64,000 bases of DNA from Chrysemys picta bellii (lineage: Eukaryota). Made by a program: the position numbers. Location of the stretch: assembly GCF_011386835.1 (NCBI RefSeq), contig NC_088793.1, positions 41,044,001-41,108,000 on the forward strand, read 5' to 3'. Shown piece after piece: positions 27,001 to 30,000 of this stretch (its first letter is position 1; every line of letters begins with the position of its first letter).

Positions 27001-30000
27001 ACTCAATGTGCAGTGGCAGTAAAAACTAACAAAATGTTAGGAACCACTAAGAAAGGGATAGATAACACTGCTCTACAGCCAAAATGCTTCTGAAATAAAT
27101 GCAGTCAAACTTTACTAATTCTGGGTCACTGAGAATGAAAATGATGCTTAAAATTGTTTGGCTCTAGTTTTCAAGATATGCTATTCGGTCAGTATATACG
27201 ACCCTTGACTTTGGAATGGCGGAGGATAAGTGAGTTATAAAGGGAAGGGATCTCAATTTAAACCAGAAATGACTAAAATACATCTTTGACTGGATCTATG
27301 AATAAATCTATGACTGGGTTTGGACAGTACTTGCTTTTTAGGCAAAACAATGAATGATGCAATCTGAAGCTGGTATTGCGTCATACATGATATGGATTGC
27401 ATCATGTTATTCCTAGAAGTCATGGATGATGCAATCATAACGAAGCTTACGTCACTCTGCTGAACAAATTGCCCTGTATCAGCTCTAGAAATCAGACAGT
27501 GTCGTGCTCTGTTATTTGTCAGTGTTTGATTTTGCAAAGGGACACATTTTTGTTTAGCCAAAGTGAGCAGAGATGCCTCGTACTTGTGTGAACAGTGCAG
27601 ATAACTTCTGCTATGTTTGTGGTGAAGTGACTTTTGCATCACAAGAGTGCAGTATAACCACTATGGTTAAGAAAGCCTATCACCTTTATTTTGGCTACAA
27701 AATTGGAGATCAGGACAAGAGGTGGGCCCCACACATATGCTGCAACACTTGTGCAACAAATCTTCGCCAGTGGTTGAACAGGAAAAGGAAATCTATGCCT
27801 TTTGCAGTGCCAATGATTTGGAGAGAGCCAACAGATCATCCGAGCAATTGTTACTTCTGCATGGTGCCTCCAGTTGGGAAAGGTGTGTCAAAGAAGAAAA
27901 AGTGGACTGTGCATTATCCAAACATTCCATCAGCTATACGCCCAGTACCCCACAGAGAAGGACTGCCGGTTCCTGATGCACCAGAATCATTCTCACTTGA
28001 GTCAGACGAGGAAGAGGATGAAACTTCTGGTCCTGAACCATCAATGTCACAGGACCCACATTTTCTCCCATCCTCCTCCTCTGAACCACACCTCATAACA
28101 CAAGGTGAACTGAATGACCTTGTCAGGGATTTGGACAGTAAGGCAGAGCTGTTGGGCTCCAGACTACAGCAGTGGAATCTCCTGGCAGGTGATGTTAGGG
28201 TTTCCATGTTCCGGGACCGTCAAAAGGATCTTGTCCCATTCTTTTTCATGGAAGGTGATCTTGTAGCCTGCCACAACATCGATGGTGTGATGGCAGCCCT
28301 CAACATTGTTCACGATCCAGATGAGTGGAGACTGTTCATTGATTCATCGAAGACGAGTCTTAAAGCTGTTTTACTGCATAATGGCAATGTTTGGCATCAA
28401 TTCCAGTTGGTCATGCAATCCATATGAAGGAAACCTATGACAGCATGAAACAACTTTTGAGGTGCATAAACTATGACCAACATCAGTGGCAGCTTTGTGG
28501 CAATTTGAAGGTTGTTGCTCTCTTGCTTGGTCTGCAGACTGGATACACAAAGTACTGCTGTTTTCTCTGCGAATGGGATAGTCGTGCAAGAGATTCCCAC
28601 TACATCAAGAAAGATTGGCCACTCCGACAGTCATTGGAGCCTGGGAGGAAAAGTGTTCAGCATCCACCACTTGTTGAATCAAGGAAGATTTTGTTACCAT
28701 CCTTACACATCAAGCTGGGTCTGATGAAGAACTTTGTCAAGGCCATTGACAAAACACAAGCAGCTTTCAAGTACCTCCATGGAAAATTTCCAAGGTTAAG
28801 TGAAGCTAAGATAAAGGAAGGTGGCTTTGTTGGTCCTCAGATTCATGAACTTCTTCGAGATGATGCATTTGACCATGCACTGCGTGGCAAGGAAAAGACG
28901 GCATGGAAAGCCTTCCAGTTAGTGGCAATAAATTTTCTCGGAAACAACAAGGCAGACAACTACAGGTTGTTGGTGGAAAACCTCCTCGAGGCATACAAAA
29001 GCCTTGGTTGCAACATGTCACTAAAGATACAGTTTTTGCACTCTCATCTAGATTTTTTTCCACCGAACTGCGGAGCAGTGAGCGACGAGCACGGCGAGCG
29101 ATTTCACCAGGACATTGCAACAATGGAGAAACGCTATCAGGACAAATGGAGCCCATCAAGGTTTGCAGACTATTGCTAGACAGTGACAAGAGATGCTCCG
29201 TTTAATGAATACAAGAGACAAGCCAAGAAGCGCCGAGTAGACACTGAATAGGACTAAACTATGTACATAATAGTTTTTTGCCCTTTGTTTCATAATAAAT
29301 TTTATTTATATAACCCTTTTGCAGATTTTTAAAGTGTTACATAAATAGGGCAGGTGAAATATTATCATGTAAAGCAACCATAAGCACATGAAAAGACCTA
29401 GGTTTACAATTTATGGTTAAAACTTTACTATCTACACAATATACATAGACATAAAATGTAAAAACTTAAATATCTTAGAAACCGTAGCCAATCAGTTGTT
29501 TTAATTGACATATTTGAATTCAGCACATCAAAATACATAATAAATAGCACATTTTATCTCTGACGCAGACGACTTCTCAAAAATTGTAGACCAGTGTAAT
29601 CAGACAAAAAATATCATAATGCCGCTATATAAATTGATGGTACGCCCACATCTTGAATACTGCATGCAGATGTCGTCACCTCATCTCAAAAAAGATATAT
29701 TGGAATTGGAAAAGGTGCAGAGAAGGACAACAAAAATGTTTAGGGTCATGGAACAGCTTCTGTATGAGCAGAGATTAAAAGGACTAGGATTTTTCAGCTT
29801 GGAAAAGAAATGACGAAGGGGGGGATATGATAAACGCATATAAAATCTTGACTGGTGTAGTGAAAGTGAATAAGGAAATGTTATTTACTCCTTCACATAA
29901 CACAAGAACTAGGGGTCACTAAATGAAATTGGTAGGAGGTTTAAAACAAACCAAAGGAAGTACTTCGTCACACAACATTGTCGAAAAAAAAATAGATAAG

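What the first reader, a model, noticed from the sequence alone, without database searches (positions are those of the whole stretch)
27066..29596. Full-length Chapaev3 transposon with intact ends inserted into a CR1
Seen: 2531 bp, CACTG..CAGTG termini, an exact TAA TSD, and the host CR1 frame is restored on excision (KGIDN|QTKNII). The transposase is ~555 aa and still almost open. Established (recalled): Chapaev3 elements make 3-bp TWA TSDs, belong to the CMC group related to Transib (the RAG1 progenitor), and have been reported as repeatedly horizontally transferred among insects, fish, lamprey and reptiles (Zhang et al. 2014). The motifs YCCFLCEWD and LHIKLG parallel RAG1 YICTLCD and LHCDIG. 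Inference: a relatively young, possibly horizontally acquired family.
Basis: partly seen in the sequence, partly recalled or inferred. Interest (0 to 1): 0.68.

Follow-up and report, generated by a model that had tools for sequence, protein, structure and literature searches.

The report
Decayed Chapaev3 transposon inside turtle LINE
A cut-and-paste DNA transposon of the known Chapaev3 kind, with complete ends but a broken transposase gene, sits inside an older LINE repeat of a turtle genome; it closely resembles a lamprey copy, which fits the horizontal spread already described for this group.

Summary
Window 27066-29596 is a 2531-bp element with 12-bp terminal inverted repeats (11 of 12 matching, CACTG...CAGTG). 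It has an exact TAA target-site duplication in the A-TAA-T context published for Chapaev3. Removing the element and one TAA restores colinearity of the flanking LINE reverse-transcriptase remnant with turtle proteins.

The transposase gene (27573-29248) is full length but dead. It carries one 1-nt frameshift, one TAG at an invariant W and a 9-nt in-frame deletion. It also has substitutions at two family-invariant residues, the second catalytic D (to N) and the first H of H(4)H (to Q).

The family has no Pfam model but is very large (9883 representative clusters). It shows the invariant D, D, C(2)C, LH, H(4)H, E layout published for the Chapaev/CMC/Transib/RAG1 group.

Closest relatives:
- an unnamed intact protein, 96.6% identical
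- a Chrysemys picta bellii gene model, 94-95%
- a lamprey gene model, 86-89%, alike even where it is read out of frame

These four form one clade and a frog homologue falls elsewhere. A fairly recent, horizontally acquired family is therefore plausible.

Not testable here: comparison with Repbase/Dfam, copy number, empty orthologous sites, and the fold comparison with RAG1.

Verdict: an ordinary member of a known kind, and turtles are a host not reported in the papers searched.

The parts
26569..27065 (+). Left part of the host LINE (CR1-type) reverse-transcriptase remnant, ending in the TAA target site
   Evidence: tblastn with turtle RT-domain proteins. Of 77 protein hits, 76 carry PF00078, and all 75 that name an organism are turtles. 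There is a weak RVT_1 hit. The name CR1 is recalled.
27063..27065 (.). Left copy of the TAA target-site duplication, preceded by A at 27062
27066..29596 (+). Whole Chapaev3-type DNA transposon copy, 2531 bp
27066..27077 (+). Left terminal inverted repeat, CACTGCTCTACA
   Evidence: (I14)
27354..27436 (.). Cluster of three exact 11-mers ATGATGCAATC (+, -, +) in the 5' non-coding part. Possibly a protein-binding or promoter element; function not tested.
   Evidence: These are the only three matches in the 64-kb window.
27573..28391 (+). Transposase coding part A (frame +3): N-terminal Cys/His-rich region, acidic linker and the first catalytic D (codon 28341-28343). An in-frame 9-nt deletion near 28137 removes the conserved L.K of DL.LPK.
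28390..28392 (+). Frameshift: one base missing in a T run. The V codon 28389-28391 and the L codon 28391-28393 share a base.
28391..29248 (+). Transposase coding part B (frame +2). It holds: the second catalytic position, now N (28502-28504); C(2)C (28559-28561 and 28568-28570); LH (28703-28708); H(4)H with its first H now Q (29030-29032); the catalytic E candidate (29087-29089). The natural stop is at 29249-29251.
29177..29179 (+). Premature TAG where 101 of 102 full-length relatives have W
29585..29596 (-). Right terminal inverted repeat (reverse complement CACTGGTCTACA)
29597..29599 (.). Right copy of the TAA target-site duplication, followed by T at 29600
29600..30021 (+). Right part of the same host LINE remnant (C-terminal end of its ORF2, with frame changes)

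Best explanation
This is a fossil copy of an autonomous cut-and-paste DNA transposon of the Chapaev3 group, which belongs to the Chapaev/CMC lineage related to Transib and RAG1.

Shown here. A family transposase of about 562 aa has a Cys/His-rich N-terminal domain and a DDE core with a C(2)C...H(4)H zinc site. The element carries 12-bp terminal inverted repeats. It lies at an A|TAA|T site inside an already decayed LINE (CR1-type) copy of a turtle genome, with the TAA duplicated.

Inferred from the family. The transposase recognised the inverted repeats, cut the element out of a donor site and inserted it with a 3-bp staggered cut.

Later decay (shown). The copy acquired a 1-nt frameshift, a nonsense codon, a 9-nt deletion and substitutions of the second catalytic D and of a zinc-binding H. 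It can no longer make an active enzyme. Its ends are intact, so it could only move if another copy supplied the enzyme.

Age and origin. The family is much younger than its LINE host. Its nearest named relatives are a Chrysemys picta bellii paralogue and a lamprey copy. The family therefore most likely entered the turtle lineage by horizontal transfer, as published for other Chapaev3 families. This last step is inferred (my estimate about 0.65); the identity of the element is close to certain.
For: Ends, duplication and A/T context.

Empty-site colinearity with turtle RT proteins.

Host is a turtle: all 75 hits that name an organism, of 77, are turtles.

Family size and Pfam: 830 longer and 2428 near-length proteins at E<=0.001, and 9883 representative clusters. 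No Pfam family was found.

Family-invariant residues in 114 aligned proteins: D260, D314, C333, C336, L381, H382, H490, H495, E509. This is the D, D, C(2)C, LH, H(4)H, E layout described for Chapaev/CMC/Transib/RAG1 (passages).

Defects of this copy: it differs at 7 of 140 columns that are at least 97% conserved in 102 full-length relatives.

Closest relatives:
- P0001: 510 of 528 aligned residues identical.
- P0275, Chrysemys: 242 of 255.
- P0120, lamprey: 377 of 436 in frame, and 31 of 36 in a segment that the lamprey model reads in the wrong frame.

Star-like pattern of private changes: window 8, P0275 5, P0001 1, over 255 columns.

Quick ML tree: window, P0001, Chrysemys and lamprey form one clade with SH-aLRT 95, and the frog homologue falls in another clade.

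Published sizes for comparison: Merrow_PM of lamprey is 2451 bp with 78+484 = 562 aa, and Anolis Chapaev3 has 12-bp inverted repeats starting CACTG.
Against: No direct comparison with a named Chapaev3 consensus was possible, because Repbase/Dfam is not on hand.

Published Merrow has a two-exon transposase. This element is colinear with the proteins and has no intron, so it may not be Merrow itself.

Zhang et al. searched NCBI databases in 2013 and do not mention turtles: 0 occurrences of 'turtle' or 'Chrysemys' in the main text. Their supplements could not be seen.

The link to RAG1 rests here only on sub-threshold or lead-level signals: PDB profile hits at E 0.23-0.34 and Atlas scores of 0.77-0.82.

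The horizontal-transfer argument uses one lamprey gene model and protein-level data only. The tree is a quick search on rows that I chose, and the careful search did not finish.
Confidence: 0.85

Rival explanations
1. The family is an old vertebrate resident inherited vertically. Its likeness between turtle and lamprey would then reflect purifying selection on a transposase or a domesticated gene.
For: NCBI annotates paralogous copies as genes in Chrysemys and Lethenteron. The family occurs in many animal phyla.
Against: The copies compared are pseudogenes with frameshifts, yet they remain 31 of 36 and 70 of 80 identical in wrongly read frames.

The window copy keeps its inverted repeats and duplication and has lost catalytic residues.

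The frog homologue is only 68% identical and sits in another clade.

Private changes are star-like.
Confidence: 0.08
2. It is a member of another CMC lineage (EnSpm/CACTA, Mirage or Chapaev1/2) rather than Chapaev3.
For: EnSpm also has CAC...GTG termini and 3-bp duplications (passage). No named Chapaev3 sequence was compared directly.
Against: The TWA duplication flanked by A and T is reported for all Chapaev3 elements examined.

The 12-bp inverted repeats starting CACTG resemble those of Anolis Chapaev3-1_AC.

The protein length of 562 aa equals that of Merrow_PM.

Close homologues occur in lamprey and Helobdella, species that carry Chapaev3 according to the legends read.
Confidence: 0.06
3. 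The copy is still mobile as a non-autonomous element, driven by an intact copy elsewhere in the genome.
For: Its ends and duplication are intact. A nearly consensus-like open protein, P0001, exists in public data.
Against: P0001 lacks the first ~30 residues, and its organism is unknown. The two turtle copies seen are both broken. No genome-wide survey was possible.
Confidence: 0.1

Closest known systems
Merrow (Repbase Chapaev3-1_PM) of lampreys, sturgeon, catfish, tuna and a dragonfly (Zhang et al. 2014, PMC4079192; sections 7, 12, 14 and 16 read)
   Same: - Size is similar: 2451 bp against 2531 bp.
- The transposase is 562 aa.
- The duplication is TWA.
- The termini are CAC...GTG.
- The closest organism-named relative outside turtles is a lamprey protein, 86-89% identical.
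   Different: Merrow is described with two coding exons (78+484 aa), whereas this element has no intron. Turtles are not among the published hosts. Direct sequence comparison was not possible.
Chapaev3-1_AC and Chapaev3-2_AC of Anolis carolinensis (Novick et al. 2010, PMC3014272; passages read)
   Same: A reptile host, a TWA duplication, inverted repeats starting CAC (12 bp, CACTGRWAAACA, in Chapaev3-1_AC) and ORFs of 485 and 561 aa.
   Different: The anole families are 12-35% diverged and are described as extinct. This copy differs from a consensus-like relative by only about 3% of residues. The sequences were not compared.
Transib transposase and RAG1 (Kapitonov and Koonin 2015, PMC4411706; Kojima 2025, PMC12730594; passages read)
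   Same: [quoted passage not shown] An N-terminal 'Chapa' zinc-finger region is reported as shared by RAG1 and Chapaev3. The family here has invariant D314, C333/C336, H490/H495 and E509. The Atlas lead points to RAG1_RNase_H, ZnC2 and ZnH2 clusters.
   Different: There was no significant sequence match to any RAG1 or Transib core chain in the PDB. The duplication is 3 bp TWA. The relationship is distant and was not tested by structure here.
EnSpm/CACTA
   Same: CAC...GTG termini, 3-bp duplications and the shared CMC motifs.
   Different: The A|TWA|T target, the short 12-bp inverted repeats, the single ~562-aa protein and the animal host range fit Chapaev3 better.

Membership tests
Chapaev3 | 3-bp target-site duplication of consensus TWA | tested here: met
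   TAA on both sides. Exactly one TAA is needed for colinearity with intact turtle LINE proteins. The definition comes from PMC4079192 and PMC3014272.
Chapaev3 | Insertion between A (5') and T (3') next to the duplication | tested here: met
   A at 27062 and T at 29600. The definition was read.
Chapaev3 | Terminal inverted repeats with invariable 5'-CAC...GTG-3' ends | tested here: met
   CACTG...CAGTG; 12-bp repeats with 11 of 12 matching.
Chapaev3 | Transposase with a DDE triad and the C(2)C, LH and H(4)H motifs | tested here: met
   Invariant D260, D314, C333, C336, L381, H382, H490, H495 and E509 in 114 relatives. In this copy D314 is N and H490 is Q, so the family meets the feature while the copy is degenerate.
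Chapaev3 | N-terminal Chapa zinc-finger domain shared with RAG1 | tested here: inconclusive
   Conserved C5, C13, C16, C57, C60, H89, C93 and C96. The profile match to the RAG1 N-terminal chain 21wb_A has only E=0.34.
Chapaev3 | Transposase groups with Repbase Chapaev3 transposases in a tree | not testable with these tools
   No Repbase or Dfam sequences are on hand. There is indirect support only: close homologues in lamprey and Helobdella.
Merrow (Chapaev3-1_PM) | At least 80% nucleotide identity to the Merrow consensus (criterion in PMC4079192 section 7) | not testable with these tools
   No lamprey DNA or consensus is available. The protein-level proxy is 86-89% to a decayed lamprey gene model, and 31 of 36 in a wrong-frame stretch.
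Merrow (Chapaev3-1_PM) | Transposase encoded by two exons (78 + 484 aa) | tested here: not met
   The coding region is colinear with 562-aa relatives and with the lamprey model across residue 78, with no gap in the DNA.
Transib/RAG1 superfamily (sensu Kapitonov and Koonin 2015) | Detectable homology of the catalytic core to Transib/RAG1 | tested here: inconclusive
   No RAG1 or Transib core chain at E<=10 in PDB sequence or profile searches. No Pfam RAG1 families at E<=10. The Atlas feature search on homologue P0076 lists RAG1 clusters at 0.77-0.82, which is lead level.
CR1 LINE (host repeat) | LINE ORF2 reverse transcriptase of the CR1 clade | tested here: inconclusive
   RT homology and a turtle-wide multicopy family are shown. 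Assignment to the CR1 clade rests on recall of the typical C-terminal sequence; no CR1 reference was compared.

The most novel reading that the evidence does not exclude
The window holds a copy of a Chapaev3 family, intronless and distinct from the published Merrow, Garfield and Conan. This family is shared at roughly 90% or more identity between lampreys and emydid turtles. That would be an unreported horizontal transfer that brings turtles into the aquatic network of lampreys and their hosts already implicated for Chapaev3.
Probability: 0.45. Interest if true: 0.45.

Novelty: new member of a known kind. Interest (0 to 1): 0.3.

Why it matters
The element is a textbook-clean insertion: ends, duplication and empty site are all reconstructible. 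It belongs to a transposon group of interest for two reasons: its kinship with the RAG1 recombinase and its repeated horizontal transfers.

If turtles are confirmed as a host of a lamprey-like family, that adds one more dated transfer event. It would also give a slowly evolving genome in which near-consensus copies survive.

Otherwise it is routine repeat annotation. Repbase/Dfam may already hold the family.

Tried and rejected
- Pfam. Scans of both coding pieces and of three intact relatives found no family at E<=10, only chance-level hits.
- PDB sequence searches. Searches with each coding piece gave only chance hits. The profile of 114 relatives gave only sub-threshold hits.
- Structure.
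- Cluster members. The look-up that would have named the sources of P0001-P0003 was switched off. The organism behind the 96.6% relative therefore stays unknown.
- Atlas. It did not hold P0002. The stored homologue P0076 gave leads only.
- Promoter and terminator scan. The bacterial-type scan of the 5' region found nothing, and it does not apply to an animal element.
- Other copies. A search in the window found only the self-match.
- Domesticated gene. Rejected because the copy keeps its ends and duplication and has lost catalytic residues.
- Human sequence or contamination. Rejected because the flanks are a turtle LINE.
The TSD tables, alignments and identity tables of Zhang et al. were therefore not seen.

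Full report
**What is in the sequence**

The stretch 27066-29596 is 2531 bases long. It begins CACTGCTCTACA, and the reverse complement of its end reads CACTGGTCTACA. That makes a 12-bp terminal inverted repeat with one mismatch; similarity stops after base 12. TAA lies directly outside both ends, at 27063-27065 and 29597-29599. The next outer bases are A and T. The window has no N and holds no second copy of the element.

**The insertion site**

The flanks belong to one decayed LINE reverse-transcriptase remnant.
- The left flank protein (108 aa) found 77 proteins. Of these, 76 carry PF00078.
- All 75 hits that name an organism are turtles: Caretta, Natator, Lepidochelys, Eretmochelys, Chelonia, Chrysemys, Gopherus, Pelusios and Pelodiscus. 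Identity is 60-77%.
- I therefore take the host for a turtle, not a human. I did not try to narrow the species.

Joining the flanks in a script with one TAA gives an open 179-aa frame.
- It is colinear with uninterrupted turtle proteins across the junction: GIDNQTKNII against GIDNKTENII.
- 47 of 78 alignments span the junction. In the three alignments printed, the gaps lie elsewhere.
- For 4 of 4 turtle proteins whose tblastn matches abut, the two matches meet at the same residue number.
- The 3-bp duplication and the boundaries are therefore real.

The name CR1 for this LINE is recalled from its typical C-terminal sequence and was not tested against a reference.

**The gene**

One coding region runs from the ATG at 27573 to 29248, in two frames.
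- Frame +3 runs to 28391 and frame +2 runs from 28391, because one base is missing in a T run.
- A TAG lies at 29177-29179.

The 3' piece went to the large protein searches, and both pieces went to Pfam and the PDB. The joined read-through was left out of every search and was used only for display and counting inside scripts.

I compared the copy with 102 full-length relatives. These are the 530-580-aa proteins among the 120 listed; the other 18 were dropped for length.
- The copy differs at 7 of the 140 columns that are at least 97% conserved.
- Two are lost residues (L and K), from a 9-nt in-frame deletion.
- Four are substitutions: D314N, H490Q, G527D and M533R.
- The last is a stop codon in place of W539.

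**The family**

Pfam has no model for this family. The family is nevertheless very large.
- 830 longer proteins and 2428 near-length proteins were found at E<=0.001.
- 9883 representative clusters were found at E<=0.001, and 568 at E<=1e-30.
- The organism-named hosts among the listed hits are all animals: pseudoscorpion, moths, firefly, fly, ant, spider, amphipod, leech, tunicate, frog, lamprey and the turtle Chrysemys picta bellii.

In an alignment of 114 relatives the invariant residues include D260, D314, C333, C336, L381, H382, H490, H495 and E509. This is the D, D, C(2)C, LH, H(4)H, E layout.
- Zhang et al. 2014 give it as characteristic of Chapaev transposases (PMC4079192, section 14).
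- Kojima 2025 describes it as shared by EnSpm, Mirage, Chapaev, Transib and RAG1 (PMC12730594, passages).

The published Chapaev3 hallmarks are all met.
- The duplication is TWA.
- The insertion lies between A and T.
- The termini are CAC...GTG.
- The sources are PMC4079192 section 14 and PMC3014272 passages and table.

The anole family Chapaev3-1_AC also has 12-bp inverted repeats starting CACTG. Lamprey Merrow_PM is 2451 bp and encodes 78+484 = 562 aa, the length of the intact relatives P0002 and P0003. Unlike Merrow as described, this element has no intron. A direct comparison with Repbase or Dfam consensus sequences was not possible.

**Relation to RAG1**

Kapitonov and Koonin 2015 (PMC4411706, passages) place Chapaev3 as one of four clades of the Transib superfamily. 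They also report the N-terminal 'Chapa' zinc-finger region of RAG1 in Chapaev3.

Here I found only weak echoes.
- The family profile matched a RAG1 N-terminal chain (21wb_A) at E=0.34 and a Drosophila chain at E=0.23. No RAG1 or Transib core chain matched at E<=10.
- The Atlas feature search on the homologue P0076 listed clusters carrying RAG1_RNase_H, RAG1_ZnC2 and RAG1_ZnH2 at 0.77-0.82. By that tool's own calibration this is only a lead.

**Age**

The copy matches the unnamed intact protein P0001 at 510 of 528 aligned residues, or 96.6%. Over the 255 columns shared with the Chrysemys gene model P0275, the private changes are as follows.
- The window copy has 8.
- P0275 has 5.
- P0001 has 1.

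This is the star-like pattern of copies decaying from one master.

About 3% private residue change suggests roughly 1-2% nucleotide divergence from the consensus (inference). The host LINE remnant is only 69-77% identical to its best relatives. CpG observed/expected is 0.38 in the element against 0.26 in the window. 'Relatively young' holds in the relative sense. An absolute date needs a genome-wide consensus and a turtle substitution rate.

**Horizontal transfer**

The lamprey (Lethenteron reissneri) gene model P0120 is itself a decayed copy.
- In its in-frame parts it matches the window copy at 377 of 436 residues (86.5%) and P0001 at 365 of 409 (89.2%).
- Of the 42 sites where it differs from both, only 6 agree with the outgroup P0002.
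- A stretch that the lamprey model reads in the wrong frame still matches the same wrong frame of the window at 31 of 36 residues. The wrong-frame tail of the Chrysemys model matches at 70 of 80. The likeness is therefore at the nucleotide level and is not maintained by protein selection.

I built a quick maximum-likelihood tree of 41 rows that I chose: the window piece, 14 organism-named proteins and 26 unnamed ones, with the wrong-frame parts of P0275 and P0120 trimmed.
- It joins the window copy, P0001, Chrysemys and lamprey in one clade (SH-aLRT 95).
- It places the frog homologue (68% identical) with leech and firefly sequences elsewhere.
- The careful search did not finish.

This is the pattern Zhang et al. 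used to argue for recurrent transfer of Chapaev3 families, including lamprey Merrow (section 16).

Evidence that weakens the case:
- It rests on one lamprey sequence and on protein-level data.
- Zhang et al. do not mention turtles in their main text.
- No DNA of other animals could be searched here.

**Literature on turtles**

- A search for 'Chapaev' with 'turtle' found 6 papers, and 'Chapaev' with 'Chrysemys' found 3.
- In the three I opened at the Chapaev passages, none reports Chapaev in a turtle (PMC4350176, PMC5381603, PMC7397244).
- Chalopin et al. list Chapaev only for green anole, fugu and platyfish among 23 vertebrates, a set that included the soft-shell turtle.
- Repbase Reports and paper supplements could not be seen, so the family may already be catalogued there.

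**Verdict**

The element is an inactivated, complete-ended Chapaev3-type transposon in a turtle LINE. It is probably a fairly recent, horizontally acquired family close to a lamprey one. It is a new member of a known kind at most, and of modest interest.

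Noticed in passing
window 27354-27436: Three exact copies of the 11-mer ATGATGCAATC (+, -, +) lie within 83 bp of the element's 5' non-coding region. They are the only matches in the window, even allowing one mismatch. About 0.03 exact matches would be expected in 64 kb (my arithmetic). They may be a binding or promoter motif.
   Followed up: partly
window 1047-2189: LTR-retrotransposon pol fragments: an integrase core (rve, E=6e-9) at 1047-1691 is followed directly by a reverse transcriptase (RVT_1, E=1e-21) at 1695-2189 in another frame. 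Integrase before RT suggests a rearranged or nested element.
   Followed up: partly
window 52870-53225 and 56139-56406: Hairpin-type repeats. One has arms of 168 nt (80% complementary, 20 nt apart) and the other arms of 58 nt (84% complementary, 152 nt apart). Their translations resemble each other in the ORF list. They are probably a foldback or MITE-like repeat family.
   Followed up: partly
window 13000-13500 and 16000-17000: Two GC-rich islands (57% and 53-68% GC, against about 40% for the window) are related to each other in inverted orientation: arms 13396-13458 and 15992-16054 are 81% complementary. Long ORFs run on both strands there.
   Followed up: partly
window 22989-23474, 33092-34113, 47921-49669, 59373-59888: Further decayed fragments of the same kind of LINE reverse transcriptase, on both strands. 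The window is rich in this LINE.
   Followed up: no
protein P0275 (Chrysemys picta bellii LOC103306399) and P0120 (Lethenteron reissneri LOC133349820): Both public gene models are built on decayed transposon copies and include stretches read in a wrong frame. They are probably annotation artefacts rather than host genes.
   Followed up: partly
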